From Bacteroidales bacterium (GTDB lineage Bacteria; Bacteroidota; Bacteroidia; Bacteroidales; UBA932), in NCBI GenBank assembly GCA_017429425.1, contig JAFROY010000002.1, positions 495,317 through 559,316 on the forward strand: a stretch of 64,000 bases of DNA. Direction: 5' to 3'. The notes below the pieces were generated by a model. That model was not told the DNA's origin. It saw only the letters and a program-made list of their open reading frames with translations, and ran no database searches. Below are positions 26,968 to 46,853 of the stretch, piece by piece (the stretch's first letter is position 1; the number at the start of each line of letters is the position of its first letter). A program made the position numbers and the translations under genes.

Positions 26968-26981
26968 AAGATTCAGATAGT

Positions 26982-28811: not shown

Positions 28812-28819
28812 TACTTTTG
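28812..28819 (+). promoter_or_regulatory. -7 box TACTTTTG for the CDP-alcohol-PT operon
   Basis: TAnnTTTG 20 nt upstream of ATG 28840. Confidence 0.5.
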
Positions 28820-28839
28820 TATCATTCAATTAGATAGGG

Positions 28840-29544: not shown

Positions 29545-30005
29545 TGAATAAATCGGCGAAAGCATTGTTGCTCCGATTCCCCAAGTTCGTTGCAGGCAAC
29601 TTGTCGGGGACTCTCGTGGACACACTCGTTCTGTGGGTTTTCTCACACCTCGTGTTTCATTCTTACGTCGGCAAAATGATTGTCTCCCCCGCCATCTCTT
29701 TTGAGTTTGCGGTCTTTACCAACTTTGTCGTTTCCTACAATATGACATGGAGAGACCGTATCTCGCAACGGTCAATCAAATCGTTCTTCAGGCACTACGG
29801 GGCTTACAATATCTCCTGTACGGTGGGATTCCTGATCAAAATGGGTATGCTTCTGTTGATACAGGCGCTGTCGAAATGGGATGTAGTGATATGTAACTTA
29901 TTGGCACTGTGTGTGTCAGGAACCTATAACTTCATGATGAACGAAATGGTTGTTTTCAGAAAAAGAAAGACATGCAATGACGCTGATTACGATGGAAGAT
30001 ATTGA
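29544..30005 (+). CDS. GtrA-family membrane protein
   Basis: 153 aa with four TM segments, starting FPKFVAGNLSGTLVDTLVLWVF, which is typical of GtrA. TAATG overlap with the upstream stop. Confidence 0.75.
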   Translation: MNKSAKALLLRFPKFVAGNLSGTLVDTLVLWVFSHLVFHSYVGKMIVSPAISFEFAVFTNFVVSYNMTWRDRISQRSIKSFFRHYGAYNISCTVGFLIKMGMLLLIQALSKWDVVICNLLALCVSGTYNFMMNEMVVFRKRKTCNDADYDGRY

Positions 30006-30810
30006 AAGCGTTTTACCGGTATTCAAAGGAAAAGTCGGAAACGGACTCGCACGTTCGCTGACGCGGATTACGGGAATCGATCAGTTGTCGGACCGCTATG
30101 ACCGGCACGAAAACCTCGCCGGTCCGGAATTCGTCAGCGCCTTCTTGAAGGACCTGGACCTGAATTACCAGGTACAGGGCCTGGAACACTTGGAGCAGGT
30201 GCTCGACGGCCCCTTCATTACCGTCAGCAACCACCCCTACGGAGGCCTGGACGGGTTGGTCCTTATTGATCTGTTCGGGAAATATCGGAAAGATTATAAA
30301 GTACTGGCCAACAAGTTTCTTTCAACGGTGGGTACAATCAAGGACAATTTTATCTGCGTAGTACCGAATACGGGTAGATCCAGCGGAATAGCGAGAGAAA
30401 GCATCTCCGGTACAAAGAAGGCGATTGAACATATTAACGGAGGCCACCCTCTCGGTCTCTTTCCTTCGGGTGCGGTGTCAGATTACAGTTTCAAGGATTG
30501 TTGTGTGCGGGACCGGGAATGGCAAAAGGGATCGCTCCGTCTTGTCAGAAAGATGATGGTGCCCGTCGTTCCCGTGCATTTCTTTGACCAAAACTCAAGC
30601 CTCTTTTACTTTTTAGGCTTGATAAGCTGGAAAATCCGGGTCTTGCGCCTCCCCAGGGAAATACTCAACAAGAAAGGCAAAACCATCCGTCTGGGTATAG
30701 GCCCCATTATCTCAGTGGAAGAGCAAAGTCGATATGGACGGATTGAAGAATATGGCAGGATGTTGAGAAATTCTGTCTATGGCATCGAGTATCATTTGAA
30801 CAATACATGA
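29977..30810 (+). CDS. Lysophospholipid acyltransferase-family protein (GlsA/OlsA-like O-acyltransferase)
   Basis: The SNHPYGGLDG block is an acyltransferase His-Asp motif, and FPSGAVS lies downstream. The track start 29950 is TTG, so ATG 29977 is used. It overlaps the end of gtrA by 29 nt. Confidence 0.7.
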   Translation: MTLITMEDIESVLPVFKGKVGNGLARSLTRITGIDQLSDRYDRHENLAGPEFVSAFLKDLDLNYQVQGLEHLEQVLDGPFITVSNHPYGGLDGLVLIDLFGKYRKDYKVLANKFLSTVGTIKDNFICVVPNTGRSSGIARESISGTKKAIEHINGGHPLGLFPSGAVSDYSFKDCCVRDREWQKGSLRLVRKMMVPVVPVHFFDQNSSLFYFLGLISWKIRVLRLPREILNKKGKTIRLGIGPIISVEEQSRYGRIEEYGRMLRNSVYGIEYHLNNT

Positions 30811-31949
30811 ATATGATAGTGACCATTAAAGAAGTTAAGACAATGAAGGATCTGCGGGCGTTTGTCCATTTCCCCAACGAACTATACAAGGACAACCCCT
30901 ATTACGTTCCGCAAATTGAGTCGATGGAGAGGGACACCCTGACTCCGTCAAAGAACAGAGCGTTTGAAGTCTGTGAAGGAAAATATTGGCTGGCATTCAA
31001 CGACAAAGGAAAGATTGTCGGGCGTGTGGCAGGGATTATTAATCACAAGTACAACAATAAGATCAAAGAAAAAACCTGCCGCTTCGGCTGGATTGATTTC
31101 GTGGATGATTGCAATGTTTCCAGGGCATTGATGCAGAAGGTTGAGCAATATGCGCGCGAAAACGGAATGAATACCATCAGCGGACCGATGGGATTTCTGG
31201 AGTTTGACGCGGCCGGAATCCTGGTGGAGGGTTTCGATAAACTCCCAACTGCGTACGGAAAATACAATGCGCCCTACTATGAATCACATCTTCTGGCCTT
31301 GGGTTATCTGAAAGAGGTCGATTTTGTGGAGTATCTCATCCTGATTCCTGAAGTTATTCCGGACCGCTACGCGCAAATGTCCAAGATTGTTGAAGAAAAA
31401 TTCGGTTTGCGACAGGCTGTTCTCCGTCGGCATAGCGATATCAATCAGTACGCGGACGGAGTCTTCAGATGCCTGAATTCAGCCTATTCACATCTCCATG
31501 GTTTCTCAGAACTGACGCCCGGTCAATGTGAAGATTTGAAAAAACAATTTCTGAGCAATATAAGCGTAGACTACCTTTCCATCATTCTCGACTCCCATGG
31601 ACAAGTCGTAGCATTCGGCGTTGCACTGCCCTCGCTCTCCAAGGCTATGCAAAAAGCCAACGGGAATCTCTTGCCGTTTGGTTTTGTACACATCTTGAAA
31701 GCCTTACGGCAAAACGACACTCTGGATGTACTTCTAATAGCGATTGATAACCAGTACAAAAACAAAGGAGTAATCGCAATGATTTTTGACAAGTTCGCTC
31801 AGGGTGTAACAAAAAACGGCATCAAGTATATCGAATCTACGCGGGAACTGGAAGACAACACCAGCGTACAGAACCTCTGGCGCTACTTTGAACGCGATTT
31901 GACCAAGCGGGCCAGAATCTATAAAAAGAACCTGAAAACCAGGCGCTAA
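30807..31949 (+). CDS. Uncharacterised 380-aa protein, probable GNAT-fold acyltransferase
   Basis: ATGA overlap with the upstream stop. The N-terminal FVHFPNELYKDNPYYVPQI block and internal GRVAGIINHKYN / IAIDNQYKNKG recall a GNAT-like family that I cannot name. The functional call is weak. Confidence 0.4.
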   Translation: MNMIVTIKEVKTMKDLRAFVHFPNELYKDNPYYVPQIESMERDTLTPSKNRAFEVCEGKYWLAFNDKGKIVGRVAGIINHKYNNKIKEKTCRFGWIDFVDDCNVSRALMQKVEQYARENGMNTISGPMGFLEFDAAGILVEGFDKLPTAYGKYNAPYYESHLLALGYLKEVDFVEYLILIPEVIPDRYAQMSKIVEEKFGLRQAVLRRHSDINQYADGVFRCLNSAYSHLHGFSELTPGQCEDLKKQFLSNISVDYLSIILDSHGQVVAFGVALPSLSKAMQKANGNLLPFGFVHILKALRQNDTLDVLLIAIDNQYKNKGVIAMIFDKFAQGVTKNGIKYIESTRELEDNTSVQNLWRYFERDLTKRARIYKKNLKTRR

Positions 31950-32896
31950 GGACGGGGTTCGCCGTAGAAGCGCATCCAGACGGCATCCTGAAGCTCCTCC
32001 GGGAGGCCGCGGAGGAAGGAACGGGTCGTATTCTTGGGAAAATCGCTGTAACGCAGGAAAATCAAGCCCGGAAGGGTGTTGTTGAAGTACGGATCCACTT
32101 CGAAACAGACGAGTTTCGCGCCGTTTTCCAGATAGATGCGCACCAGGACCGGCATCCGGTATTTTCCGTCAGAGAGCTTTTTCATCGTGATATCGAGTTC
32201 CCCGATTTCTCCGGGAGGAATCTGCAGATCGTCCGGATTCAAAGAGCCGAAATCCGGCACGAAGGGGTGCTCGGGCGTGGCAATCTGATCGGCATCCGGC
32301 ATCCGGTAATACTTCTGGATATAGTCAGCCATCAGGCTCTTGTAGAGATCAGGAATGTCGTTGCTGATGCTGACTGGCCCCGAAAAGAACTCCATTTCCG
32401 GATATCTCAGCGATGATACGCCGAGTCCGGTCAGCAGCATGCGCAGCGGCTGGATTTCACGCTGGTATTTCTGAACGATAAAGGAACGGCCGAGTTCCAT
32501 GGTTTTGTTAAGCAGCGAAGGGGCCTTCTCCCCATATTTATAGAGCGTAGAGGTATAGAAACCGGATACGCCGCCGTGATCTTTCATGATCTCCGGACCG
32601 AATCCCAGACGGTATGCGCCGACGATTTCCCGCTTCGAAATGTTCCAGAGAATCATCTGCTCATAGTAGGCGTCGAATTCGTCCGTATCCATGGCATGTC
32701 CTGTCCCCTCGCCGACTGCGCGGAAAGTCTTCTCGCGGAGCCGGTACAGCTCACGCATGACAAGCGGAGCTTCCGAAGTCGGAATCAGGTAAGCCCTGTA
32801 GTCTCCAATCTCAAAAAGAATCCGGTGATCCAGTTTGGCCATTTCGGCGCGGATTTCTTTCGCGGGGGTCTTTTTTGCCAGCCGTTCTTTTTTCAT
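31946..32896 (-). CDS. OlsB/GlsB-type N-acyl amino-acid synthase (Acetyltransf_5 GNAT)
   Basis: LYRLREKTFRAVGEGTGHAMDTDEFDAYYEQMILWN...IVGAYRLGFG is the LRxxxF...D.DxFD...vGxYRL pattern of OlsB-like N-acyltransferases. Length is 316 aa. Confidence 0.65.
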   Translation of the reverse strand: MKKERLAKKTPAKEIRAEMAKLDHRILFEIGDYRAYLIPTSEAPLVMRELYRLREKTFRAVGEGTGHAMDTDEFDAYYEQMILWNISKREIVGAYRLGFGPEIMKDHGGVSGFYTSTLYKYGEKAPSLLNKTMELGRSFIVQKYQREIQPLRMLLTGLGVSSLRYPEMEFFSGPVSISNDIPDLYKSLMADYIQKYYRMPDADQIATPEHPFVPDFGSLNPDDLQIPPGEIGELDITMKKLSDGKYRMPVLVRIYLENGAKLVCFEVDPYFNNTLPGLIFLRYSDFPKNTTRSFLRGLPEELQDAVWMRFYGEPRP

Positions 32897-33828: not shown

Positions 33829-34812
33829 ATGACAACAGGTAACGTCCGTCCCGCAGACATGGAGCGCATCACTACGTCCGCTCTGGCCAAGAAATTCATT
33901 GATGAACAGATTAAGGAGCTTCGCGCTCAGATTGGTGACAAAAAGGTGCTGCTGGCACTCTCCGGCGGTGTAGACTCATCGGTCGTAGCTGCGCTGCTGA
34001 TCAAGGCTGTCGGCAAACAGCTCGTCTCCGTGCACGTGAACCACGGTCTGCTTCGCAAGGGTGAACCCGAGCAGGTAATCAAGGTGTTCCGCGACGAACT
34101 GCACGCAAATCTCGTTTATGTGGACGCTACGGACCGTTTCCTGGACAAACTCGCCGGCGTGGCCGATCCCGAGCAGAAGCGCAAGATTATCGGCGCAGAA
34201 TTCATCCGCGTATTCGAGGAAGAGGCCCGCAAGCTGGAAGGCATCAGCTTCCTGGCGCAGGGTACCATCTATCCCGATATCGTGGAATCCGGTCCTGTGA
34301 AGTCGCACCACAACGTGGGCGGTTTGCCGGACGATCTCCAGTTTGAGCTCGTCGAGCCTATCAAGCTGCTGTTCAAGGATGAGGTGCGTGTAGTCGGCAA
34401 GGAACTGGGGCTCCCCGACAATATGGTCTTCCGCCAGCCGTTCCCCGGCCCGGGCCTGGGTGTACGCTGCACGGGTGCCATCACCCGCGACCGTCTGGCC
34501 GCACTGCGTGAAGCGGATGCGATTCTGCGTGAAGAATTCGCAAAGAACGGCCTGGAGGGCAAGGTCTGGCAATATTTCACCATCGTGCCGGACTTTAAGT
34601 CAACTGGCGTCAAAAACGACAAGCGCAGCTGGGACTGGCCAGTGATTATCCGCGCCGTCAACACCCGCGACGCGATGACCGCCACCATCGAAGAGATCCC
34701 CTACAAACTGCTGCACCATATCACGCAGCGTATCGTGACGGAGGTTCCCGGCGTAAACCGTGTCCTCTACGACCTTACCCCGAAGCCTACCGGAACCATT
34801 GAGTGGGAATAA
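33829..34812 (+). CDS. guaA: GMP synthase ATP-pyrophosphatase + dimerisation domains only (no glutamine amidotransferase domain)
   Basis: PP-loop [19 protein letters not shown], and C-terminal KPTGTIEWE. At 327 aa it corresponds to the C-terminal two thirds of a canonical GuaA. A -7 box lies 37 nt upstream. Confidence 0.85.
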
Positions 34813-34815
34813 TCC

Positions 34816-35469
34816 ATGAAACGTTTGTTACTGATAATCAGTGTTCTGCTCCTGGCGGTCAGCTGCGGGCAGAAAGTTGATACGCTCCGTACCGGTGACC
34901 TCATTTTCGTGGGGCTTCCGATGGACTATGACGCGGAAGGCGATTCGATGGATGCAGCCATTTCGGCGGCTACCGGAGAGGAAGGCGCACTGAACCTGAT
35001 TCATGTGGCGATTGCCGAAGTCGACGCGGACAGCATCTGGATTATCGACGCGACCATCGCCCACGGCGTAGACCGCCATCCGCTGGCCGTTTTTCTCAAG
35101 GATTTCACCCTGAAAGACGGCACCTATCCGGAGTTCATCATCAAACGGGTAAAAGGCATTGACGCGGAAGCAGCTGTCGGCAGAGCGAAAACCTACTGCG
35201 GCCGCGGCTATGACGTCCGTTTCCTTCCTGACAACGAAGATCAGTATTGCACGGAACTGGTGCAGAACAGCTATCTGGACGCTTCAGGCAACGAGCTCTT
35301 CCACAGCGAACCCATGAATTTCTGCGCACCGGACGGCACGATGCCGCCCTATTGGGAATGGCTGTTCGGCAAGCTGGGAATGGAGGTTCCGCAGGGCGTG
35401 CCCGGTACGAACCCGCAGCGGATGGCTCAATCCGACCTGCTTTACGACGTCCCGGTCAAGTTGTATTAA
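34816..35469 (+). CDS. YiiX-like permuted papain/NlpC-P60 superfamily lipoprotein
   Basis: Lipobox LAVSC, then LRTGDLIFVG and a QYCTELVQNSY cysteine block typical of the YiiX family. Confidence 0.6.
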   Translation: MKRLLLIISVLLLAVSCGQKVDTLRTGDLIFVGLPMDYDAEGDSMDAAISAATGEEGALNLIHVAIAEVDADSIWIIDATIAHGVDRHPLAVFLKDFTLKDGTYPEFIIKRVKGIDAEAAVGRAKTYCGRGYDVRFLPDNEDQYCTELVQNSYLDASGNELFHSEPMNFCAPDGTMPPYWEWLFGKLGMEVPQGVPGTNPQRMAQSDLLYDVPVKLY

Positions 35470-35486: not shown

Positions 35487-35526
35487 AGAAAAGCGGACCA
35501 GCCGAAAGACTGGTCCGCTTCTTTTT
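35487..35526. terminator. Intrinsic terminator hairpin between convergent genes (stronger for the plus strand)
   Basis: Perfect 11-bp stem AAGCGGACCAG / CTGGTCCGCTT (35491-35501 / 35510-35520) with an 8-nt loop. TTCTTTTT follows on the plus strand and TTTTCTG on the minus strand. Confidence 0.65.
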
Positions 35527-35540: not shown

Positions 35541-36641
35541 TTAGACGTCGGCGCGAGCCATTGCGTCTTTGTAGTACTTCTGGTTGACGAACACATCCTC
35601 TTTGTAAGGGTTGATGTGACGCTTGCGGGAGACGCAGATGATGTAGCCCAGTGCGATTACGTTGACTGCGAGAGCCAGGGCGCTGATGACAATCATCATC
35701 GTAGGATTTGCGGCCACGACGGAAGGATCGACCGTAGTACCTACGATACCGTCAGCTGCAGCCTGACCGCCGGCAGCGTAGAGCTGCTCGATGGTAGCGG
35801 TGCCTTCCGGATAGAGAACGGGCAGCGTTGCCCAGCTGAACCACTGACGGCCGTCTTTGAAGGTCTCCTGGAAGAGCGGGAATACCTGAGCGAACATACA
35901 CCAGAGAGCCAGGGTGTTGGCACGGTTCTGAATCCAACCGCCACGGTTCCAGAGGAGAGCGGCTACGGTCGGAGCAAGAAGCAGTGCGATACCGCAATAC
36001 CAGCTGTGGGTCGGCAGGCAGTTGTAGGTGTAAGCGAAGTTCCAGATGTCGTAGATCACGATATAAACCCAGGTCATATCGGCCCAGATCATATCTTTCT
36101 TATCCTTGGAAGCATAGACGTTCCACCAGGCGGTCATACAGAAGATGTTGAGCAGACCGGCCACGCCGTTCATCACGTTGTGCCAGCCGCCGAACTGCCA
36201 TACGCCTTCGGAGGTGAGCCACCACTTGTTCCAGCCCATTGCAGCGCTCTCGAAGTCGGAGACGCAGGCAATCAGGATGTTGATGGCCACGATGATGAAC
36301 GGGAACGGTTTGAACCAGTGTTTTGCGCCGATACCCCATTTGTACTTGATCATCATGAAGCCGATACACCCGGCCGTGGCGGCGTAAAGCTTGGCATAAT
36401 GGAACCAGCCCTGCATGTAAACATGGGTCTGATTTTCCAGCGCCCACTGCGCACCTGCCCGGACACCGAGCCAGATGGCAATGAAGTATGCGCTGAGAGC
36501 CAGCGGAACTACCAGGAAAGAGATAATGCCGCCGAGTTTGGTACGGCGTGCAAACTCATTGAGAAGAATGAGCCCCAGGAGGACGACAAGCATCATCCCC
36601 CACTGGGAGAGGGCGTTAGCCCCGTAAACATTAAAAAACAT
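35541..36641 (-). CDS. Polytopic membrane protein of unknown function, Trp-rich
   Basis: 366 aa with about 10 hydrophobic segments. ATG at 36641, 20 nt downstream of the preceding gene. A hairpin terminator follows its 3' end. Confidence 0.6.
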   Translation of the reverse strand: MFFNVYGANALSQWGMMLVVLLGLILLNEFARRTKLGGIISFLVVPLALSAYFIAIWLGVRAGAQWALENQTHVYMQGWFHYAKLYAATAGCIGFMMIKYKWGIGAKHWFKPFPFIIVAINILIACVSDFESAAMGWNKWWLTSEGVWQFGGWHNVMNGVAGLLNIFCMTAWWNVYASKDKKDMIWADMTWVYIVIYDIWNFAYTYNCLPTHSWYCGIALLLAPTVAALLWNRGGWIQNRANTLALWCMFAQVFPLFQETFKDGRQWFSWATLPVLYPEGTATIEQLYAAGGQAAADGIVGTTVDPSVVAANPTMMIVISALALAVNVIALGYIICVSRKRHINPYKEDVFVNQKYYKDAMARADV

Positions 36642-36661
36642 AGTAGATGAAAACTAAAAAG

Positions 36662-36955
36662 TTACTTGGTCTGAAGTTTGGGCGCGCGGGCCTTTACCAG
36701 CACGAAGATGGCCCAGACGGCGGTCACGACCACCGACATGGGTAAGCCTACGGTGAGCAGCTCCTTCCAATTCACGGGCAGGAAGAGTTCACCGTTCACG
36801 GCATGATCGACGAGCAGCATCGCGGTACCGCCCCACAGCATCAGTTCCAGGGAGTGAAGATTGCGGGAGAACACAGAGTTTCCCGGGCGGCGGTTGAGCT
36901 TACGATAGGCACTGGTAACGACGGCCTGCGTCAAGGGAACTAAAAAACAAGACAT
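36662..36955 (-). CDS. Small (97 aa) two/three-TM membrane protein, unknown function
   Basis: ATG at 36955, 18 nt after the hypA stop on the same strand. It has hydrophobic segments and I recognise no motif. Confidence 0.45.
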   Translation of the reverse strand: MSCFLVPLTQAVVTSAYRKLNRRPGNSVFSRNLHSLELMLWGGTAMLLVDHAVNGELFLPVNWKELLTVGLPMSVVVTAVWAIFVLVKARAPKLQTK

Positions 36956-36973
36956 GTTGTTGATTATTAATAA

Positions 36974-37315
36974 TTATACTTCTATTTCTTTGATTTCCAC
37001 TTCATTGCCTTGCAGCAACCAAGTGTTTTCGCTCTTGCAGTGCGGGCAGGTTTTACCATATCGGACCGTTTCGTATTCAGCGCCGCAGCCGTCGCAATGG
37101 GTAACCGCGGGGATGATATTGGCTTTCAGCTCGCATCCCCGGAGCAGGTCCTCCTTGTCGGTAGCCCAGCGCCAGCAGTCGGTAAGGTATTCAGGAACGA
37201 TCGTGGAGACCTCTCCGATGTTCATGACAACGGACGAGACGTGCTCCACCTGATGTTCCTCCGCCACCTTCTTGACGTCACGGATGATATAGAAAACGAT
37301 GCCCAGTTCGTGCAT
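36974..37315 (-). CDS. hypA: Hydrogenase/urease nickel metallochaperone HypA
   Basis: MHELGIV N-terminus (the MHE nickel site) and a zinc site CDGCG...CPHC. Length is 113 aa. Confidence 0.8.
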   Translation of the reverse strand: MHELGIVFYIIRDVKKVAEEHQVEHVSSVVMNIGEVSTIVPEYLTDCWRWATDKEDLLRGCELKANIIPAVTHCDGCGAEYETVRYGKTCPHCKSENTWLLQGNEVEIKEIEV

Positions 37316-37324
37316 GGCCGAAGT

Positions 37325-40153
37325 TTACTTCTTCTTGCCGACGATAATCTTGCCGGTACGCTTGAGCATATACGGCAGGATGCCGCTGAACTTGGCCTCG
37401 GAAGTGCGCATCACGCTGGCTTCCGGGTTGTCGCGGTGAAGGTGGATGGCGTCGAATGCACACTTGGTGGTGCAGATACCGCAACCGATGCAGCGGTTTT
37501 CATCCACAACGGAAGCGCCGCAGGAGAGGCAGCGCGCCGTCTCCTTGCGCACCTGTTCTTCCGTCAGGGTCTGCGTGTATTCGCGGAACGGGCCGTTCGC
37601 ATTGTCGTGACCTTCCACCTGGCGGGAACCGTTGTCGTAGGATTCCACCAGGATATCGTCTTTGTCGAGTTCGATGAAGTCGCGGCGGTTGCGGCCGATG
37701 GTCATATGGCCGTGCTGCACATAGCGGTGCAGGCTTTCTGCCGCCTCCTTGCCGGCTGCGATGGCATCGATCGCGAACTTCGGACCGGTGAAGAGGTCAC
37801 CGCCCACGAAGATATCTTCTTCTGCCGTCTGATAGGTCAGTTTGTCGGCCACCGGATAGACACCGCGGACGAATTCCACCTTGGTGTTTTTCAGCAGATC
37901 CTTCAGGATGACGGTCTGGCCGATTGCGAAGATTACCAGGTCTGCATCCAGCGTAATGAGCTGGGATTCATCATATTTCGGAGCGAACTTGTGATCTGCG
38001 TCGAACACGGAAGTACACTTCTTGAAGACAATGCCGGTGACCTTGTCGGTGCCGAGCACCTCCTTCGGGCCCCAGCCGGGATTGATGACCACGCCGTCTT
38101 CGCGTGCTTCGCGGCGTTCTTCGAGCGATGCGGGCATGATATCTTCCGTCTCGAGCGAAAGCATCGTAACAGATGCTGCACCGCTGCGTTTTGCCACGCG
38201 TGCGGCATCGATGGCCACATTACCGCCACCCACCACGACCACGTTGCCGGTGACCTTCTTGTCACCGCAGTTGGCATCGTGAAGGAAATCGATGGCTGTC
38301 GTGGTGCCCTTCAGGGTCTCGCCGCTGATACCGGGCAGACGTCCGCCCTGGCAGCCGATCGCCACGTAGAAGCCCTTGTAGCCCTCTTTGCGAAGGCTTT
38401 CGATGGTAACATCCTTGCCGACCTCCATGCCGCAGCGGATATCCACGCCGATCTCGCGCATGATGTCGATTTCAGCGTCGATTACCTTCTTCTCCAGTTT
38501 ATAGGAAGGAATACCGTAGCGGAGCATACCGCCGGGGAATTCGTTCTTTTCGAATACGGTGGGCTTGTAACCCATCGTGGCCAGGTAGTATGCGCAGCTC
38601 AGGCCGGCCGGGCCGCCGCCGATGATGGCGATCTTCTCTTCCCAGCGGTCCTGCACGTTGGAGCAGATGTTCACCTCGGGAATGAAACGGGTATCGGCAT
38701 TGAGATCCTGCTCTGCGATAAACTTCTTGACAGCATCGATCGCGATGGGCTGGTCAATCGTACCGCGGGTGCAGGCATCCTCGCAACGGCGGTTACAGAC
38801 GCGTCCGCAGACTGCCGGGAACGGGTTTTCACGCTTGATGAGCTCCAGCGCTTCGGTGTATTTGCCTTCTGCAGCCTTCTTCAGGTAGCCCTGAACGGCG
38901 ATATGAGCCGGGCAGGCCGTCTTGCAGGGCGCCGTACCGGTCGGATAGCAGTTGATACGGTTCTTGTCGCGGTAATCCTCATCCCATTTGTGCTTGCCCC
39001 ACTTGCGTGCATCGGGCAGTTCCTGTTTGGGATAGGTCTGCTCGCCATGCTTGGTGCAGAGTTTCTGGCCCAGTTTCACCGCACCGGCGGGGCAGTATTC
39101 CACGCATCGGCCGCAGGCAACACAGTTTTCGGTTTTTACCTTGGCGACGTAGGCGCTGCGCGAGAGATTCGGTGTATTGAAGAGCTGCGAAGTACGCAGA
39201 GCGTTGCAAATCTTGACGTTGCAGTTGCAGATGGCGAAGATCTTGCCCTCGCCGTCGATATTTGTGATCTGGTGAACGAAGCCGTGATCCTCCGCTTTCT
39301 TGAGGATGGCCATCGCCTCGTCGTAGGTGATGTCGTGACCGCGGCCCGTCTCACGGCAATAGTCAGCCATGTCGCCGATACTGATGCACCAGTCACGGTA
39401 GTCGTCTGCACAGCCCTCGTCCAGCTTCTTGCGGCCGTAACGGCAGGAGCAGATACCAACACCCAGGTGGCCCTCATAGCGTTTGAGCCAGTATGAGAGG
39501 TGCTCGATATCCATGGTCTGGTTCTCCATCGAGATGGCTTTCTCCACCGGAATCACGTGCATGCCGATACCGGAGCCGCCCATCGGAATCATGGGGGTGA
39601 TCTTCTCCAGCGGCAGGAAGGTCATGCGCTCGAAGAACATGGCCAGTTCCGGATGGCGGTCCATCAGGTCCTTGTTCATGTTGGTGTATTCGGCGCTGCC
39701 CGGGACGAACATCGGCACCCAGTAGATGCGGTCTTCGCGGTTATACGTGGTACCCGGAATCGGGCCGTCCTTCGTGTATTTGTCGCCGTAGTCGTACTCG
39801 ACCATACCGAAGTAGGAGAGTTTGTCCATCAGTTCATCCAGGGATGCGTCGTCCGGGGTGTAATGCTTCTTGGCATTCATCTCGTGCAGCATCTGGTAGG
39901 TGTGGTGCTTGCGGACCTTGAAATAGTTGCGCGGAAGCATATCCAGCAGCAGGTCCAGAGCGGCCTCGCGGGTTACGGCGTCCATTTCGTCTTCGAAGAT
40001 GCAGGCCAGGCCCCAGTATTCCGGAGCGTCGGTGGTCATCTTGATCTTTCCCGGAATGCGGTCCGTGACGTGGCGGACAAATTTCAGCAGTTTCGGGTTC
40101 GGGTTTTTGTCACCCATGTGTTTGGGGACAAACTTTTTTGACATTTCAGGCAT
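37325..40153 (-). CDS. 942-aa multidomain Fe-S / FAD oxidoreductase (Cys-rich N-module + 4Fe-4S + GltD-like NAD(P)H:FAD module + C-terminal 2x4Fe-4S)
   Basis: Blocks in order: CSCRYGRKKLDEGC...CNCNVKIC; CVACGRCVEYCP; CPAHIAVQGY...FPAVCGRVCNRRCEDAC (GltD-type); IAIIGGGPAGLSCAYYL and VVVVGGGNVAIDAAR Rossmann folds; CLSCGAS...CIGCGICTTKC. Confidence 0.8.
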   Translation of the reverse strand: MPEMSKKFVPKHMGDKNPNPKLLKFVRHVTDRIPGKIKMTTDAPEYWGLACIFEDEMDAVTREAALDLLLDMLPRNYFKVRKHHTYQMLHEMNAKKHYTPDDASLDELMDKLSYFGMVEYDYGDKYTKDGPIPGTTYNREDRIYWVPMFVPGSAEYTNMNKDLMDRHPELAMFFERMTFLPLEKITPMIPMGGSGIGMHVIPVEKAISMENQTMDIEHLSYWLKRYEGHLGVGICSCRYGRKKLDEGCADDYRDWCISIGDMADYCRETGRGHDITYDEAMAILKKAEDHGFVHQITNIDGEGKIFAICNCNVKICNALRTSQLFNTPNLSRSAYVAKVKTENCVACGRCVEYCPAGAVKLGQKLCTKHGEQTYPKQELPDARKWGKHKWDEDYRDKNRINCYPTGTAPCKTACPAHIAVQGYLKKAAEGKYTEALELIKRENPFPAVCGRVCNRRCEDACTRGTIDQPIAIDAVKKFIAEQDLNADTRFIPEVNICSNVQDRWEEKIAIIGGGPAGLSCAYYLATMGYKPTVFEKNEFPGGMLRYGIPSYKLEKKVIDAEIDIMREIGVDIRCGMEVGKDVTIESLRKEGYKGFYVAIGCQGGRLPGISGETLKGTTTAIDFLHDANCGDKKVTGNVVVVGGGNVAIDAARVAKRSGAASVTMLSLETEDIMPASLEERREAREDGVVINPGWGPKEVLGTDKVTGIVFKKCTSVFDADHKFAPKYDESQLITLDADLVIFAIGQTVILKDLLKNTKVEFVRGVYPVADKLTYQTAEEDIFVGGDLFTGPKFAIDAIAAGKEAAESLHRYVQHGHMTIGRNRRDFIELDKDDILVESYDNGSRQVEGHDNANGPFREYTQTLTEEQVRKETARCLSCGASVVDENRCIGCGICTTKCAFDAIHLHRDNPEASVMRTSEAKFSGILPYMLKRTGKIIVGKKK

Positions 40154-40165
40154 AACGTCTGTGTT

Positions 40166-40840
40166 TTATCGATTTTTCCAATTGTTTACTTCCTGCAGGA
40201 GCCACTCTGCGAAGTGCTCCATCCCCTCACCTGTCTTGGCACAGATGGGAATCACCTGCGCCTTGGGATTGCGCATGCGCACGTTCGCACGGCACTTCTC
40301 CATATCAAAGTCGAAATAAGGCTGTACGTCAATCTTGTTGACGAGCACCAGGTCGCACACGGAGAACATCAGGGGGTATTTCAGAGGTTTGTCGTCGCCT
40401 TCCGGGACTGAGAGAATCATGGCGTTGCGCACCGATCCGGTATCGAATTCGGCCGGGCAGACCAGGTTGCCCACATTTTCCAGAATCACGAGGTCTACGC
40501 TGTCCATGGGCAGATTGTCCAGTCCCTGGCGCGTCATTTCAGCGTCCAGGTGGCACATGCCGCCCGTGTGAAGCTGGATAGCCTCCACGCCGGTGGCTTC
40601 CGCAAGCTTGCGGGCATCCACGTCGCTGTCGATATCCGCTTCCATCACGGCAATCCGGAGTTTCTCTTTCAAAAGATTGACCAGGCGGATCAGGGTGGTG
40701 GTTTTTCCGCTGCCCGGAGAGGACATTAAGTTGAGGAGGAAGACGCCGCGGGCCTTGAGTTCCCGCCGGAGCGCATCCGCGTCGTTCTGGTTTTCAGCGA
40801 ATACGCTCTTCTTTATCTCAATGATTTTCACTTCGTCCAT
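40166..40840 (-). CDS. hypB: Nickel-inserting GTPase HypB
   Basis: P-loop SSPGSGKTT, the CH motif GGMCHLDA, ENVGNLVCPA and NKID. The track start is TTG, so ATG 40840 (MDEVKII) is used. There is no His-rich N-terminus. Confidence 0.85.
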   Translation of the reverse strand: MDEVKIIEIKKSVFAENQNDADALRRELKARGVFLLNLMSSPGSGKTTTLIRLVNLLKEKLRIAVMEADIDSDVDARKLAEATGVEAIQLHTGGMCHLDAEMTRQGLDNLPMDSVDLVILENVGNLVCPAEFDTGSVRNAMILSVPEGDDKPLKYPLMFSVCDLVLVNKIDVQPYFDFDMEKCRANVRMRNPKAQVIPICAKTGEGMEHFAEWLLQEVNNWKNR

Positions 40841-40952
40841 AAGGTCGATTATAATCAGCAATAATACGAAATCTCCGGCAGATAACCAAATTCTCAGGAA
40901 AATGACGATATTTGTGACACAAAAAAGGAATCAACTACTAATTATCTTGAAT

Positions 40953-41330
40953 ATGAAAGCAATACAGACAGAAAAGGCCCCGGCGGCTATCGGACCGTAC
41001 AGCCAGGCTATTGACAGCGGTGCAGGCATCGTTTTCGTTTCGGGCCAGTTGCCCATCAACCCCGCAACAGGGACATTTCCGGAAGGCGGCGTCAAGGAAC
41101 AGACGCGCCAGAGCCTGCTCAACGCAAAGGCTATCCTGGAGGCAGCGGGACTGGGGCTGGACAATGTTGTCAAAACCACCGTTTTCCTTGCGTCCATGTC
41201 GGACTTCGCAGCCATGAACGAAGTCTATGCACAGTTCTTTACCGCCCCCTTCCCTGCACGCAGCGCAGTGGCAGTGAAAACCCTCCCCAAAGAGGCGCTG
41301 GTCGAGATCGAGTGTATCGCAGCGAAGTAA
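40953..41330 (+). CDS. ridA: RidA/YjgF-family reactive enamine/imine deaminase
   Basis: 125 aa: MKAIQTEKAPAAIGPYSQAI...VFVSGQLP...ARSAVAVKTLPKEALVEIECIA. The track ORF 40593-41330 is an in-frame upstream extension with no credible coding content. Confidence 0.9.
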   Translation: MKAIQTEKAPAAIGPYSQAIDSGAGIVFVSGQLPINPATGTFPEGGVKEQTRQSLLNAKAILEAAGLGLDNVVKTTVFLASMSDFAAMNEVYAQFFTAPFPARSAVAVKTLPKEALVEIECIAAK

Positions 41331-42812: not shown

Positions 42813-43355
42813 CTACTGCTCGCGGATGATGTCCATACCCAGACGGATAGCCTCTTCATTCACCGGAATCAGGTGATGATGGCGCTCCGGAAGGGTTTTG
42901 CGGAGAGCTTTGAGCACGCTTTCGATGGAAACGATGGGGTGAACCTTCAGCAGACCGCCCAGCACGATCATGTTGAAAACCTTGATCATGTTCTTCTCGG
43001 CAGCCGTATCCATCGCGTCGATGCGATAGACGTGAATATCCTTACGAGTCGGCGGGTTGTTGATGCCGTTGCCGTCGTAGATAAGGGTTCCGCCGGGTTT
43101 GACCTTCGGTTCGAACTTATCCAGCGAAGGCTGGTTGAGCACGATAACCGAGTCGTAGGAGCTGAGGATCGGCGAAGAAACCGGTTCGTCGCTGACGATG
43201 ACCGTCACGTTGGCGGTACCGCCGCGCTGTTCCGGACCGTAAGCCGGCATCCAGGTCACTTCCTTGTCTTCCATCAGGCCGGAATAGGCAAGAATCTTGC
43301 CCATCGAGAGGACGCCCTGTCCTCCGAAACCGGAAATAATGATTTCGTGTGTCAT
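42813..43355 (-). CDS. 2-oxoacid:ferredoxin oxidoreductase gamma subunit
   Basis: IIISGFGGQGVLSMGKIL start, 180 aa. It is the last gene of a 4-subunit OFOR set. Confidence 0.85.
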   Translation of the reverse strand: MTHEIIISGFGGQGVLSMGKILAYSGLMEDKEVTWMPAYGPEQRGGTANVTVIVSDEPVSSPILSSYDSVIVLNQPSLDKFEPKVKPGGTLIYDGNGINNPPTRKDIHVYRIDAMDTAAEKNMIKVFNMIVLGGLLKVHPIVSIESVLKALRKTLPERHHHLIPVNEEAIRLGMDIIREQ

Positions 43356-43364
43356 AATTCTTGC

Positions 43365-44135
43365 TTATTGTTGTCCGTTGTCCTTGAGGTCCCCGAGCTG
43401 GTAGTACGGGAACATGTTCTCTTCCATCCACTTGTTGGCCTTTTCAGGGGTCATCTTCCAGTTGGTGTTGCACGTAGAGACGATTTCCACCAGGTTGGAA
43501 CCTTTGCCCTGCATCGAATACTCGAATGCCTTGCGGATGGCCTTTTTAGCCTTGAGGATTGCACCCACGCTCTGTACGCTCTGACGCGTAACGTAGCAGG
43601 TACCTTCGAGCGTTGCGGCGATCTCAGTCATCTTCAAAGGATAACCGTGAAGTTTCGGGTCGCGGCCGTACGGGCACGTGACGGTCTTCATGCCGATCAG
43701 GGTGGTCGGAGCCATCTGACCGCCGGTCATACCGTAAATCGCGTTGTTTACGAAGATGATGGTAATGTTCTCACCGCGGTTGAGTGCGTGGATGGTTTCA
43801 GCGGTACCGATGCAGGCCATATCGCCGTCACCCTGGTAGGTGAAGACGAGACGGTCGGGCCAGAGGCGCTTGATAGCGGTAGCCACAGCCGGAGCACGGC
43901 CGTGAGCAGCTTCTTCCCAGTCGATATCGATATAGTTGTATGCGAAGACGGCGCAACCCACCGGGGAGACGCCTACGGTCTTCTCCTGCATGCCCATCTC
44001 GGCAATCACTTCGGACACCAGTTTGTGGACGACGCCGTGGCTGCAGCCCGGGCAGTAGTGCATCGGGGTGTCGTTCAGAAGTTCCGGTTTTTTGTAAACC
44101 AGGTTTTCGGGCTGTATGATTTGTTCTTTCGTCAT
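43365..44135 (-). CDS. 2-oxoacid:ferredoxin oxidoreductase beta subunit (TPP-binding)
   Basis: CPGCSHG and the TPP motif TYQGDGDMACIG...NNAIYGMTGGQ. Confidence 0.9.
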   Translation of the reverse strand: MTKEQIIQPENLVYKKPELLNDTPMHYCPGCSHGVVHKLVSEVIAEMGMQEKTVGVSPVGCAVFAYNYIDIDWEEAAHGRAPAVATAIKRLWPDRLVFTYQGDGDMACIGTAETIHALNRGENITIIFVNNAIYGMTGGQMAPTTLIGMKTVTCPYGRDPKLHGYPLKMTEIAATLEGTCYVTRQSVQSVGAILKAKKAIRKAFEYSMQGKGSNLVEIVSTCNTNWKMTPEKANKWMEENMFPYYQLGDLKDNGQQ

Positions 44136-44148
44136 AAGGCAATGCAGA

Positions 44149-45231
44149 TTAACGGGTCATTTTCTTGAGTTCTTCTACAACCTCTTCAGGTTCGGGGATG
44201 ATACCGCCCAGACGGCCGTACCACTTGACGGGAACCTTGCATTCGACGGCGAGGCGGATGTCTTCCACCATCTGGCCGGCGTTGATTTCGAGCGAGAGGA
44301 TACCCTTCATCCGGCTGCCCAGTTCAGCGATACGCTTGGTCGGGAACGGCCAGAGGGTGATAGGACGGAGCAGACCGACCTTGATGCCCTGTTCGCGCGC
44401 GATGGCAATCACCTTCTTGGAGATGCGGGCTGCGCTGCCGAAAGCGACAATCAGGTACTCTGCATCTTCGGTCATATACTCTTCGTAACGGACCTCCGTC
44501 TTCTCAATCTCGCGGTACTTCGCCTGGATACGGAGGTTGATGACCTCCATAGCCTCGGAGCGGAGCTCGAGCGAGGTGATGATATTGGGCTTGCGGCCCT
44601 TCTTGCGGCCGTTGGCTGCCCAGGGGCACTGCTTGATGACTTCTTCTTCGGTACGGCGGGGCTTGAACGGAGGAAGGACGACCTTTTCCATCATCTGGCC
44701 GATTGCACCGTCGGAGAGAATCATAGCCGGGTTGCGATACTTGAATGCGAGTTCAAAGGCGAGATCTACGAAATCTGCCATCTCCTGCACGGAAGCCGGA
44801 GCGAGCGTGATGAGACGATAGTCACCGTGACCGCCGCCCTTGACCGTCTGGAAATAGTCGGCCTGGCTCGGCTGGATGGTACCCAGACCGGGGCCGCCGC
44901 GCGACACGTTCACGACGAGGGCCGGAAGCTCGGCACCTGCCAGATAGGAGATACCCTCCTGCATCAGGCTGACGCCCGGGCTGGAGGAGGAGGTCATGAC
45001 GCGCTTGCCGGTAGCGGCACCGCCATAGACCATGTTGATGGAAGAGACTTCGCTCTCTGCCTGGACTACGACCATGCCGGTCGTTTCCCAGGGTTTCTCA
45101 GCTGCGAGGGTTTCGAGGACCTCGGACTGCGGGGTGATAGGATAGCCGAAGTATCCGTCGCAACCGCAACGGATGGCGGCGTGGGCAATGGCCTCATTGC
45201 CTTTCATCAGGGTAATTTCTTTCTCTGCCAT
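44149..45231 (-). CDS. 2-oxoacid:ferredoxin oxidoreductase alpha subunit
   Basis: MKGNEAIAHAAIRCGCDGYFGYPITPQSEV start. Length is 360 aa. Confidence 0.9.
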   Translation of the reverse strand: MAEKEITLMKGNEAIAHAAIRCGCDGYFGYPITPQSEVLETLAAEKPWETTGMVVVQAESEVSSINMVYGGAATGKRVMTSSSSPGVSLMQEGISYLAGAELPALVVNVSRGGPGLGTIQPSQADYFQTVKGGGHGDYRLITLAPASVQEMADFVDLAFELAFKYRNPAMILSDGAIGQMMEKVVLPPFKPRRTEEEVIKQCPWAANGRKKGRKPNIITSLELRSEAMEVINLRIQAKYREIEKTEVRYEEYMTEDAEYLIVAFGSAARISKKVIAIAREQGIKVGLLRPITLWPFPTKRIAELGSRMKGILSLEINAGQMVEDIRLAVECKVPVKWYGRLGGIIPEPEEVVEELKKMTR

Positions 45232-45234
45232 AGA

Positions 45235-45465
45235 TCAGTCCTCCTTTTTGCGGTAAACGGTGATACATCCGTCGGGGCAGACGATGGCGCACGATGCACA
45301 GCCCGTGCAGGTGTCTTCCAGGACGGCTTCAGCGTAGTTGTAGCCCTTCTGGTTCACGCTCTTCTCCGTGAGGTTCAGGACGTGAAGCGGGCAGGCGACC
45401 ACGCAGAGACGGCATCCTTTGCAACGTTCGATGTCAACGACAGTTGCGCCTTTCATTTTAGCCAT
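45235..45465 (-). CDS. 2x[4Fe-4S] ferredoxin (OFOR delta subunit)
   Basis: 76 aa with CKGCRLCVVACP and CTGCASCAIVCP. Confidence 0.85.
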   Translation of the reverse strand: MAKMKGATVVDIERCKGCRLCVVACPLHVLNLTEKSVNQKGYNYAEAVLEDTCTGCASCAIVCPDGCITVYRKKED

Positions 45466-45489
45466 ATCGGTGGTTGTGTTATTAGTTGG

Positions 45490-45759
45490 TTATTGGTTGT
45501 ACATATCCTTGTTGTAGAAAGCCAGGATCTCGTTGGCGATCTCCAGGGCCTGTTTGGCGGGGCTTTCCGGGTTCAGGGCGATGGCCTCAAGGTAATTGTT
45601 GATGGCCATCTGCCACGATCCCTTCTTGCGCCAGGCGTTGCCCTGCAGATAGAAGAGGGTATCGGTCATGACGCCTCCTCCCTGCCGGAACTCCTCCAGA
45701 AGCGCGATGGCTTCGTCGGCCCGGCTCGCATCGAGCAAATCCTTGACTTTCTGTTCCAT
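45490..45759 (-). CDS. Small tetratricopeptide-repeat protein
   Basis: 89 aa. FYLQGNAWRKKGSWQMAINNYLEAIALNP is a TPR unit. It sits between ilvE and the OFOR genes. Confidence 0.6.
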   Translation of the reverse strand: MEQKVKDLLDASRADEAIALLEEFRQGGGVMTDTLFYLQGNAWRKKGSWQMAINNYLEAIALNPESPAKQALEIANEILAFYNKDMYNQ

Positions 45760-45762
45760 CGG

Positions 45763-46809: not shown

Positions 46810-46853
46810 GTCTGAAAATGAGTTATTTGATTTAAAAAGTATCTGAAAAAAGA

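What the first reader, a model, noticed from the sequence alone, without database searches (positions are those of the whole stretch)
35541..40840. hypB - giant FeS/FAD oxidoreductase - hypA - two unknown membrane proteins: a nickel-chaperone operon without a hydrogenase
**Seen in sequence.** Five minus-strand genes are separated by only 12, 9, 18 and 20 nt. A hairpin terminator follows the last one.
- hypB (P-loop SSPGSGKTT, CH motif GGMCH).
- A 942-aa multi-cluster flavoprotein.
- hypA (MHE... nickel site, CxxC...CxxC zinc site).
- A 97-aa membrane protein.
- A 366-aa Trp-rich polytopic membrane protein.

No [NiFe]-hydrogenase large or small subunit, hypCDEF, urease, CODH or known Ni transporter gene occurs anywhere in the 64 kb.

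**Established knowledge.** HypA and HypB act together to deliver Ni to [NiFe]-hydrogenase (and to urease in Helicobacter). They normally sit in hyp/hya-type clusters.

**Inference.** One possibility is that the oxidoreductase and/or the membrane proteins are the functional partners of the Ni chaperones. Examples would be a new Ni-dependent redox enzyme, a Ni uptake/storage module, or an electron-input module for a hydrogenase encoded elsewhere. The other possibility is that this is an unusual split of a hyp regulon. Either way, bracketing of a 2.8-kb oxidoreductase gene by hypB and hypA is not an arrangement I recognise.
Basis: partly seen in the sequence, partly recalled or inferred. Interest (0 to 1): 0.65.

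Follow-up and report, generated by a model that had tools for sequence, protein, structure and literature searches.

The report
IsrA-type reductase with nickel chaperones
This rumen Bacteroidales operon places the nickel chaperones HypB and HypA around a large iron-sulfur flavoprotein of the published but biochemically untested "putative isoprene reductase" (IsrA) family, and relatives that carry it have no hydrogenase, urease or CO dehydrogenase, so the flavoprotein itself is the likely nickel client.

Summary
Five minus-strand genes lie 12, 9, 18 and 20 nt apart and end in a hairpin terminator.

The 942-aa protein is a full-length homolog of IsrA, the putative isoprene reductase of Acetobacterium wieringae (45% identity, 730 bits). 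It keeps the six invariant cysteines with two CxC motifs.

Kronen et al. 2023 (PMC10134865) already reported that IsrA homologs sit next to HypA (73%), HypB (56%) and DUF5692 (40%). They proposed a nickel-dependent enzyme. The arrangement is therefore not new, and this scan met it in at least eight other genomes.

Findings added here:
- In 150 near-complete genomes of the same family, true HypB occurs in 10 of 10 carriers of the flavoprotein and in 0 of 140 others. HypA occurs in 9 of 10 and 0 of 140.
- None of the 10 carriers has a [NiFe]-hydrogenase large subunit. The five carriers searched further lack HypD, CODH, urease, CbiM and NiCoT.
- The cassette is patchily distributed and its flanks are not conserved. 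A four-gene version lies on a mobilizable Subdoligranulum plasmid.
- DUF5692 has no solved structural relative and also occurs alone, so a nickel-uptake role is unproven.
- The 97-aa protein is found only inside the cassette.

The substrate and the nickel dependence remain untested.

The parts
40841..40949 (.). Divergent intergenic region between hypB (minus strand) and a RidA-family gene (plus strand, 40950-41330). It presumably holds the operon promoter.
   Evidence: Sequence read. It contains a partial Bacteroidetes-type -7 element (GAATTTG) about 40 nt upstream of the ATG. The sigma-70 scan was uninformative. The promoter is inferred, not shown.
40166..40840 (-). hypB: a Ni-binding GTPase chaperone of 224 aa from the ATG at 40840. 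The ORF is open up to a TTG at 40861.
   Evidence: TIGR00073 scores 244.8 bits against a cut-off of 121.2. The P-loop GSGKT and the Ni ligands GGMCH...VCPA are present. It is 60% identical to HypB of the isr operon. A match above cut-off occurs in 10 of 10 carriers and 0 of 140 non-carriers.
37325..40153 (-). IsrA-family reductase, 942 aa. It has an uncharacterised N-module (residues 1-~340) with a Cys6 site at C235, C237, C256, C309, C311 and C316. The rest holds a ferredoxin-type cluster motif (C344-C354), a Fer4_20 di-cluster domain (402-485), an FAD/NAD(P)H module (507-801) and a C-terminal ferredoxin-type motif (C888-C898).
   Evidence: It is 45% identical over 920 residues (730 bits) to IsrA, P0397. 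P0397 was confirmed as IsrA by its operon context in GCA_902175055.1. The C-terminal half resembles NfnB, StnC, DPD and GltD.
39137..40153 (-). N-module of the reductase (residues 1-339). This is the proposed catalytic or metal-site domain.
   Evidence: It has no Pfam or NCBIfam match and no PDB sequence match. A search of 1.84 billion representatives found 931 proteins at E<=0.001. The CxC motifs at 235 and 309 are spaced 74 residues apart, as in IsrA.
36974..37315 (-). hypA: a Ni metallochaperone of 113 aa.
   Evidence: PF01155 scores 108.4 bits. TIGR00100 scores 72.5 bits, below its equivalog cut-off of 88.1. The MHE N-terminus and two CxxC motifs are present. It occurs in 9 of 10 carriers and 0 of 140 non-carriers.
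36662..36955 (-). p97: a small, hydrophobic, cassette-specific protein of unknown function. Its conserved motifs are MSCF.VPL, LEKMLWGG..ML.VDH.INGEL and LTVG.PM.
   Evidence: It matches no family. It is present between hypA and DUF5692 in 62 of the related loci and absent in 5 loci where that gap is only 30-45 nt. It occurs in 7 of 10 carriers, always inside the cassette, and in 0 of 140 non-carriers. It is absent from the Firmicutes versions.
35541..36641 (-). DUF5692: a polytopic membrane protein of 366 aa, 6% Trp. It is a candidate transporter for Ni or for the hydrophobic substrate.
   Evidence: PF18948 scores 427.5 bits. The AlphaFold2 model has pLDDT 78.9 and about 10 helices. Foldseek found no PDB match at E<=0.001, with best TM-score 0.25. 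A profile search of the PDB found nothing. It is 75-94% identical across the related loci that hold it.
35491..35520 (.). Bidirectional intrinsic-terminator-like hairpin shared with the convergent plus-strand gene 34816-35469.
   Evidence: It has an 11-bp stem with 7 GC pairs and an 8-nt loop. The tails are CTTTTT on the plus strand and TTCTGTTT on the minus strand.

Best explanation
The locus is a self-contained operon for an IsrA-type reductase and its maturation.

**Proposed mechanism**
- The 942-aa protein takes electrons from NAD(P)H at an NfnB/GltD-like FAD module.
- It passes them along a chain of four [4Fe-4S] clusters to a Cys6 site with two CxC motifs in an otherwise uncharacterised N-terminal module.
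- At that site it reduces a C=C bond of a hydrophobic, non-activated substrate, probably a conjugated diene. This follows the analogy with isoprene reduction by A. wieringae IsrA.
- HypB (GTPase) and HypA are dedicated chaperones. They load nickel into the Cys6 site of this enzyme, not into a hydrogenase.
- DUF5692 and the small p97 protein are membrane accessories. They either import Ni2+ or hand a membrane-soluble substrate to the enzyme.

**What is shown and what is inferred**
- Shown: family membership, conserved cysteines, gene order, strict HypA/HypB co-occurrence, and absence of the known HypAB clients in carriers.
- Inferred: nickel in the Cys6 site, the type of substrate, and the role of the membrane proteins.
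For: **Membership in the IsrA family**
- The protein is 45% identical to IsrA over 920 residues, at 730 bits.
- P0397 is IsrA itself. It sits in the A. wieringae ISORED-2 assembly followed by HypA, HypB, a ferredoxin and a second HypA, as the paper describes.
- Six N-module cysteines are invariant across 34 homologs that include IsrA. The 74-residue CxC spacing is the same as in IsrA.
- The C-terminal half matches NfnB, StnC, DPD and GltD by profile (E down to 6e-131) and by fold.

**Dedicated chaperones**
- The order hypB-OXR-hypA-(p97)-DUF5692 is kept in essentially all 80 related species loci.
- In 150 near-complete genomes of the family, HypB above cut-off is in 10 of 10 carriers and 0 of 140 others. 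HypA is in 9 of 10 and 0 of 140. The one missing HypA is at a contig break.
- No [NiFe]-hydrogenase large subunit was found in 10 carriers and 9 congeners.
- No HypD, Complex1_49kDa, Prismane/CODH or urease alpha above cut-off was found in five carriers that are 95-100% complete.
- The published neighbourhood statistics for 988 IsrA homologs give HypA 0.73, HypB 0.56 and DUF5692 0.40.

**Independent expression evidence from the literature**
- The isr operon proteins are induced by isoprene in A. wieringae.
- hypA and hypB rise 373- and 585-fold in isoprene-reducing Pelotomaculum.

**Cross-phylum conservation**
- A Subdoligranulum plasmid carries hypB (72% identity), OXR (61%), hypA (50%) and DUF5692 (56%) in the same order.
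Against: - No IsrA-family protein has been purified. Nickel content, the nature of the Cys6 site and the substrate are untested.
- The Cys6 site could hold only an unusual Fe-S cluster.
- HypA scores below the NCBIfam equivalog cut-off (72.5 against 88.1 bits).
- Nothing near the cassette hints at a substrate. The flanks differ between species, and no MCRA-family (oleate hydratase) gene was found in 19 genomes.
- DUF5692 occurs without the reductase or HypAB in five genomes. This argues against an obligatory link.
- The window's own genome is only 55% complete.
Confidence: 0.62

Rival explanations
1. HypA and HypB serve a conventional nickel enzyme encoded elsewhere ([NiFe]-hydrogenase, urease or CODH). 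The flavoprotein is only an electron-transfer (diaphorase-like) partner, or is unrelated.
For: HypA and HypB are classically hydrogenase/urease chaperones (established knowledge). The window's own assembly is only 55% complete, so absence there proves nothing. Pelotomaculum, which reduces isoprene, does have [NiFe]-hydrogenases.
Against: Carriers that are 92-100% complete have no PF00374 match. The five searched further have no HypD, no Complex1_49kDa, no Prismane and no urease alpha above cut-off. HypA and HypB are found only next to the flavoprotein in 150 genomes. HypCDEF, which are needed for any [NiFe] site, are missing.
Confidence: 0.05
2. The flavoprotein is an all-iron Fe-S flavoenzyme. 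The HypA/HypB-like proteins have been recruited for another job, for example handling Zn or Fe, assembling the unusual Cys6 cluster, or buffering nickel. Nickel is then not part of the catalytic site.
For: Kronen et al. modelled the Cys6 site primarily as a fifth Fe-S cluster. CxC motifs also bind Fe-S clusters in other proteins. HypA scores below the equivalog cut-off. No metal analysis exists for any member of the family.
Against: The HypB Ni ligands (CH...C) and the HypA Ni site (MHE) are intact. HypB is 60% identical to the isr HypB and passes the HypB equivalog cut-off two-fold. The strict 1:1 co-occurrence and tight operon linkage across phyla suggest a specific maturation role.
Confidence: 0.2
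3. The operon's main purpose is nickel acquisition or storage. DUF5692 plus p97 form the importer and HypAB the cytoplasmic carriers. These serve an unrecognised nickel enzyme other than the flavoprotein.
For: Carriers lack CbiM and NiCoT permeases. DUF5692 has many invariant His, Cys, Asp and Glu residues in predicted helices. hypA and DUF5692 are directly adjacent in Firmicutes.
Against: The largest and best-conserved gene of the cassette (86-91% identity in 80 species) would be left unexplained. The A. wieringae isr operon has HypAB and the reductase but no DUF5692. Close DUF5692 copies (76-85% identity) persist alone in genomes without HypAB, and a distant paralog sits next to a class I fumarase.
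Confidence: 0.08

Closest known systems
[quoted passage not shown] 2023, PMC10134865)
   Same: - The alignment runs the full length: 45% identity and 730 bits.
- The domain order is the same.
- The six cysteines with two CxC motifs 74 residues apart are the same.
- hypA and hypB are adjacent, and HypB is 60% identical.
- DUF5692 is listed among the usual neighbours of the clade.
   Different: - The gene order differs. Here hypB-reductase-hypA brackets the enzyme, whereas the isr operon runs isrA-hypA-hypB-ferredoxin-hypA.
- This cassette has no N-module-like ferredoxin and no second hypA.
- This cassette adds p97 and DUF5692.
- The reductase has a roughly 50-residue N-terminal extension.
- The host is a rumen Bacteroidales bacterium whose near-complete relatives have none of the known nickel enzymes searched for (at most a weak LarA-like match). 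A. wieringae has CODH/ACS and LarA.
- The substrate here is unknown.
NfnB / NfnABC NfnA / StnC, the GltD beta subunit, and the N-terminal half of dihydropyrimidine dehydrogenase
   Same: The C-terminal ~530 residues share the FAD/NAD(P)H module and the Fer4_20 di-cluster domain. The profile E-value reaches 6e-131 and Foldseek probability is 1.0. As in DPD, NAD(P)H electrons would travel through four [4Fe-4S] clusters to a distant site that reduces a C=C bond.
   Different: The acceptor site is not an FMN/TIM-barrel domain as in DPD, and not a partner subunit as in Nfn or GltB. It is a ~340-residue N-module with a Cys6 site that has no solved or annotated relative.
Canonical hyp operons (hypABCDEF) for [NiFe]-hydrogenase maturation, and the H. 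pylori HypAB-urease route
   Same: HypB has the GTPase G-domain and the CH...C Ni site. HypA has the MHE Ni site and a Zn ribbon.
   Different: Carriers have no hypCDEF, no hydrogenase subunits and no urease. HypB lacks an N-terminal high-affinity CxxCGC motif, which can be seen directly in the sequence.
Acetyl-CoA synthase A-cluster (Ni-Ni-[4Fe-4S])
   Same: A CxC-type cysteine motif lies next to an Fe-S site, and a dedicated NTPase chaperone is present. Kronen et al. noted this resemblance.
   Different: No sequence or fold homology was detected. The resemblance is a hypothesis about coordination chemistry only and was not tested here.

Membership tests
IsrA 'clade 9' reductases (Kronen et al. 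2023) | Aligns over the whole ~900-aa IsrA, including the unannotated N-terminal ~270-330 residues | tested here: met
   BLASTP against IsrA (P0397) gives 45% identity over 920 columns and 730 bits. Other Acetobacterium clade 9 members share 47-49% with IsrA.
IsrA 'clade 9' reductases (Kronen et al. 2023) | Cys6 'cluster V' site with two CxC motifs | tested here: met
   C235, C237, C256, C309, C311 and C316 are invariant in 34 homologs that include IsrA. The CxC spacing is 74 residues, as for IsrA Cys180/182 and Cys254/256.
IsrA 'clade 9' reductases (Kronen et al. 2023) | FAD/NAD(P)-binding domain, DPD domain II (two [4Fe-4S]) and two ferredoxin-type motifs | tested here: met
   PF07992 scores 95 bits and PF14691 scores 75 bits. 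CxxCxxCxxxC motifs lie at residues 344 and 888.
IsrA 'clade 9' reductases (Kronen et al. 2023) | hypA and hypB (often also DUF5692) within a few genes | tested here: met
   All are adjacent, with gaps of 9-20 nt. The order is conserved in 80 loci.
IsrA 'clade 9' reductases (Kronen et al. 2023) | Reduces isoprene or another conjugated diene | not testable with these tools
   No biochemical data exist for any member of the family.
IsrA 'clade 9' reductases (Kronen et al. 2023) | Contains nickel delivered by HypAB | not testable with these tools
   This is a hypothesis in the literature. Here it is supported only by co-occurrence and by the absence of other clients.
HypB (TIGR00073) | Score above the equivalog cut-off, P-loop GTPase, and CH...C Ni ligands | tested here: met
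   244.8 bits against a cut-off of 121.2. GSGKT, GGMCH and VCPA are present.
HypA (PF01155 / TIGR00100) | Family score, N-terminal MHE Ni site, and two CxxC Zn motifs | tested here: inconclusive
   Pfam scores 108.4 bits against a cut-off of 28.9, which is met. The NCBIfam equivalog scores 72.5 bits against a cut-off of 88.1, which is not met. The motifs are present. It is a HypA-family protein but not a typical hydrogenase equivalog.
[NiFe]-hydrogenase maturation (hyp) system | Presence of hydrogenase large subunit and HypCDEF in the genome | tested here: not met
   No PF00374 match above cut-off in 19 genomes of the genus and family. No HypD or Complex1_49kDa in 5 carriers.
DUF5692 (PF18948) | Full-length match to the family model | tested here: met
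   427.5 bits, covering model positions 3-304 of 304.
Known nickel permeases (NiCoT/NicO, CbiM/NikM) | Sequence or fold similarity of DUF5692 or p97 to these families | tested here: not met
   Pfam reports only DUF5692, and nothing for p97. Foldseek and a profile search found no significant PDB match. HupE/UreJ was not tested.

The most novel reading that the evidence does not exclude
The cassette may be a horizontally mobile, fully self-sufficient nickel module. In this reading, DUF5692 (with p97 in Bacteroidales) is a new class of Ni2+ permease. It feeds HypB/HypA, which build a new kind of Ni-Fe-S active site in the N-module of the reductase. That site hydrogenates non-activated conjugated C=C bonds, such as plant terpenes, isoprene or conjugated fatty acids, and gives rumen bacteria an extra electron sink. 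This would add both a further class of nickel enzyme and a new transporter family.
Probability: 0.18. Interest if true: 0.8.

Novelty: new member of a known kind. Interest (0 to 1): 0.38.

Why it matters
If the IsrA family is nickel-dependent, it would be a new class of nickel enzyme. It would also be the first dedicated client of HypA/HypB outside hydrogenase and urease.

The rumen Bacteroidales members are useful test cases. Their near-complete relatives have no known HypAB client and no clear other nickel enzyme (only a weak LarA-like match in one of five), so any nickel requirement or chaperone phenotype can be assigned to this operon.

In the rumen, a reductase for unactivated double bonds would be an electron sink that competes with methanogenesis. 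It could also bear on the biohydrogenation of plant lipids or terpenes.

This locus adds no new concept beyond the 2023 paper. It adds cleaner comparative evidence, a cassette-specific small protein (p97), and evidence that DUF5692 is not strictly tied to the enzyme.

Tried and rejected
- **Hydrogenase or another client elsewhere.** Rejected after searching near-complete relatives for PF00374, PF01924, PF00346, PF03063 and PF00449.
- **Own-genome absence as evidence.** Rejected because the assembly is only 55% complete.
- **Conjugated fatty acid lead** (from earlier scan notes and from the oleate hydratase neighbours in Acetobacterium). No MCRA-family (PF06100, oleate hydratase) gene was found in 10 carriers or 9 congeners. 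No gene family recurs in the flanks of the 80 loci; the commonest is in 6 of 80. The lead is therefore unsupported here, though not excluded.
- **DUF5692 as a recognisable transporter fold.** Foldseek against the PDB gave nothing at E<=0.001, and a profile search of the PDB gave nothing.
- **N-module against the PDB by sequence.** The only hit was a chance-level one at E=0.14. A fold search of the whole model returned only the NfnB-like half.
- **Known Ni permeases in carriers.** CbiM and NiCoT were not found. LarA is weak and inconsistent.
- **GMP-synthase-like neighbour as a housekeeping yardstick for horizontal transfer.** It turned out to be an accessory paralog, so the test was abandoned.
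- **Sigma-70 promoter scan.** It is uninformative for Bacteroidetes.
Full report
**1. Observation**

- hypB lies at 40166-40861. The probable ATG start is at 40840, which gives 224 aa.
- A 942-aa ORF lies at 37325-40153.
- hypA lies at 36974-37315.
- A 97-aa ORF lies at 36662-36955.
- A 366-aa ORF lies at 35541-36641.

The gaps between them are 12, 9, 18 and 20 nt. An 11-bp perfect hairpin at 35491-35520 has T-rich tails on both strands. It closes the operon and also the convergent gene opposite it.

Profile searches confirm the gene identities.
- HypB matches TIGR00073 at 244.8 bits (cut-off 121.2).
- HypA matches PF01155 at 108.4 bits.
- The 366-aa protein is a full-length DUF5692 (PF18948, 427.5 bits).
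- The 942-aa protein has Fer4_20, a pyridine-nucleotide-disulfide oxidoreductase fold and two ferredoxin motifs. Its first ~330 residues match no family.
- The 97-aa protein matches nothing.

**2. What the big protein is**

A full-text search led to Kronen et al. 2023 (PMC10134865). They describe IsrA, a 901-aa putative isoprene reductase of Acetobacterium wieringae ISORED-2. It is encoded with two hypA genes, hypB and a ferredoxin.

Through a distant representative (P0087) I recovered a 901-aa A. wieringae protein, P0397. In assembly GCA_902175055.1 it is followed by HypA (118 aa), HypB (225 aa), a Fer4 protein and HypA (117 aa). That is the isr operon itself.

The window's protein aligns to it over 920 columns at 45% identity and 730 bits. 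This is in the range the paper gives for other 'clade 9' homologs (47-49%).

In alignments that include IsrA, six N-module cysteines are invariant: C235, C237, C256, C309, C311 and C316. The two CxC motifs are 74 residues apart, exactly as IsrA's Cys180/182 and Cys254/256.

The C-terminal ~530 residues match the NfnB-like module of NfnABC/StnABC, NfnI, DPD and GltD. This holds by profile (E down to 6e-131) and in the AlphaFold2 model (pLDDT 76.2; Foldseek probability 1.0). The N-module has no PDB relative by sequence.

**3. The arrangement is already published**

Kronen et al. computed neighbourhoods for 988 IsrA homologs. They found HypA (0.73), HypB (0.56), TetR (0.21) and DUF5692 (0.40). 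They proposed that HypAB insert nickel at the Cys6 'cluster V' site.

Two 2026 preprints still treat IsrA as uncharacterised. They report 373- and 585-fold induction of hypA and hypB in isoprene-reducing Pelotomaculum.

No biochemical study was found in the library.

The scan's own notes show the same conclusion for at least eight other genomes. I consulted them only after reaching the identification.

**4. Comparative evidence obtained here**

The window's assembly is only 55% complete, so I used relatives.

*Conservation and distribution*
- A genome-collection scan found 476 loci. The best 80 are all rumen or gut Bacteroidales MAGs, with the reductase at 85-91% identity. Essentially all keep the order hypB-reductase-hypA-(p97)-DUF5692.
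- The cassette is patchy. It is in 10 of 150 near-complete genomes of the family, including 8 of 17 in the same genus.
- It is in none of 200 genomes sampled across the order. Those show only weak hits to 350-450-aa N-module-like proteins.

*Co-occurrence in the 150 family genomes*
- HypB above its cut-off is in 10 of 10 carriers and 0 of 140 others.
- HypA is in 9 of 10 and 0 of 140. The exception is at a contig break.
- p97 is in 7 of 10 and 0 of 140, always inside the cassette.

*Absence of known nickel enzymes and permeases*
- Carriers that are 92-100% complete have no [NiFe]-hydrogenase large subunit.
- Five carriers that are 95-100% complete lack HypD, Complex1_49kDa, Prismane/CODH, urease alpha above cut-off, CbiM and NiCoT.
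- LarA is at most a weak match in one of the five.

This is cleaner than the Acetobacterium case, where CODH/ACS and LarA are present.

*Mobility*
- The flanks of the 80 loci share no recurrent gene. The commonest family is in 6 of 80.
- A mobilizable 267-kb Subdoligranulum variabile plasmid carries hypB (72%), reductase (61%), hypA (50%) and DUF5692 (56%) in the same order, without p97.
- A Lachnospiraceae contig has hypA directly followed by DUF5692.
- The module therefore behaves as a transferable unit.

**5. The membrane proteins**

*DUF5692*
- It is very conserved: 75-94% identical within the related loci, and 68% identical to a Lachnospiraceae protein.
- Many His, Cys, Asp and Glu residues are invariant.
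- Its model (pLDDT 78.9, about 10 helices) has no significant match in the PDB by fold or by profile.
- It is not strictly tied to the enzyme. Close copies stand alone in two near-complete genomes that lack the reductase and HypA. One is 85% identical and lies between a GH92 gene and a RidA gene; that genome also lacks HypB. The other is 76% identical.
- Paralogs at 32-35% identity lie elsewhere, one next to a class I fumarate hydratase.
- Whether it imports Ni2+ is open. That reading is attractive because carriers lack CbiM and NiCoT. The alternative is that it handles a hydrophobic substrate.

*p97*
- It is a Bacteroidales-specific insertion with the conserved motifs MSCF.VPL and VDH.INGEL.
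- It is missing in five loci where hypA and DUF5692 are only 30-45 nt apart.

**6. Mechanism proposed**

Electrons would pass from NAD(P)H to FAD, then through four [4Fe-4S] clusters to the Cys6 site in the N-module. There a non-activated C=C bond is reduced. This is architecturally analogous to dihydropyrimidine dehydrogenase, with a metal site in place of FMN.

HypB and HypA load nickel into that site. This step is inferred and is the literature's hypothesis. It is strengthened here by exclusive co-occurrence and by the absence of alternative clients.

The substrate is unknown. The conjugated fatty acid lead from earlier notes found no support in this lineage. No MCRA-family (PF06100, oleate hydratase) gene was found in 19 genomes, and there are no lipid genes in the conserved neighbourhood. 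The bacterium could still act on dienes made by other rumen organisms.

**7. Limits**

- There is no access to model coordinates, so Cys-Cys distances could not be measured.
- The N-module could not be folded or searched separately.
- Absences rest on MAGs of 92-100% estimated completeness, and on five genomes for most families.

**8. Verdict**

The operon is real, well conserved and probably mobile. It belongs to the published IsrA family, so it is a new member of a known but biochemically unproven kind. The claim that the arrangement is unrecognised is not.

Noticed in passing
window 42813-48020 (minus strand): A cluster for branched-chain amino acid / branched-chain fatty acid interconversion. 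It holds a 2-oxoacid:ferredoxin oxidoreductase gamma, beta and alpha (VorB-like, 558 bits), a branched-chain aminotransferase (334 bits) and a butyrate kinase (405 bits).
   Followed up: no
window 33829-34812 (plus strand): A stand-alone 327-aa protein matches only the C-terminal (ATP-pyrophosphatase) part of GMP synthase, model positions 193-512. Three of five relatives searched carry it at 92-96% identity, and all five have a full-length guaA that is only about 49% identical. It is therefore an accessory paralog, not the housekeeping gene.
   Followed up: partly
window 29950-30810 and 31946-32896: Two acyltransferases resemble the two halves of ornithine-lipid synthase OlsF / glycine-lipid GlsA and GlsB. 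They lie on opposite strands around an unannotated 380-aa ORF.
   Followed up: no
window 20001-32000: This stretch has lower G+C (0.47-0.51) than the rest of the window (0.51-0.61). Several of its ORFs have no NCBIfam match. It may be acquired DNA.
   Followed up: no
L085 (G215:C8:1-12000), L089 (G039:C126), L084 (G225:C2): DUF5692 occurs without the reductase or HypA. One copy is 85% identical and lies between a GH92 gene and a RidA gene, overlapping the RidA start. Another is 76% identical and stands alone. A 35% paralog sits next to a class I fumarate hydratase. A RidA gene also sits divergently next to hypB in the window (40950-41330).
   Followed up: partly
L094 (OY725877.1:187101-203869): A 267-kb circular record, typed as a mobilizable MOBV plasmid of Subdoligranulum variabile, carries hypB-reductase-hypA-DUF5692 at 50-72% protein identity. 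A divergent 255-aa possible regulator gene, not annotated here, lies upstream. The record itself has almost no annotation.
   Followed up: partly
G006, G077, G116 and others (one search places): Other Bacteroidales encode 350-450-aa proteins that match only residues ~140-339 of the reductase's N-module, at 24-32% identity. They are reminiscent of the N-module-like 'ferredoxin' of the isr operon, which matches residues 198-358 here at 25%. The Cys-rich module therefore also exists as a separate protein.
   Followed up: no
L010 (DAIOUZ010000218.1): A 5-kb contig binned as 'Candidatus Limiplasma' (Firmicutes) carries the Bacteroidales-type cassette at 85% identity. This is either a binning error or a recent transfer.
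   Followed up: no
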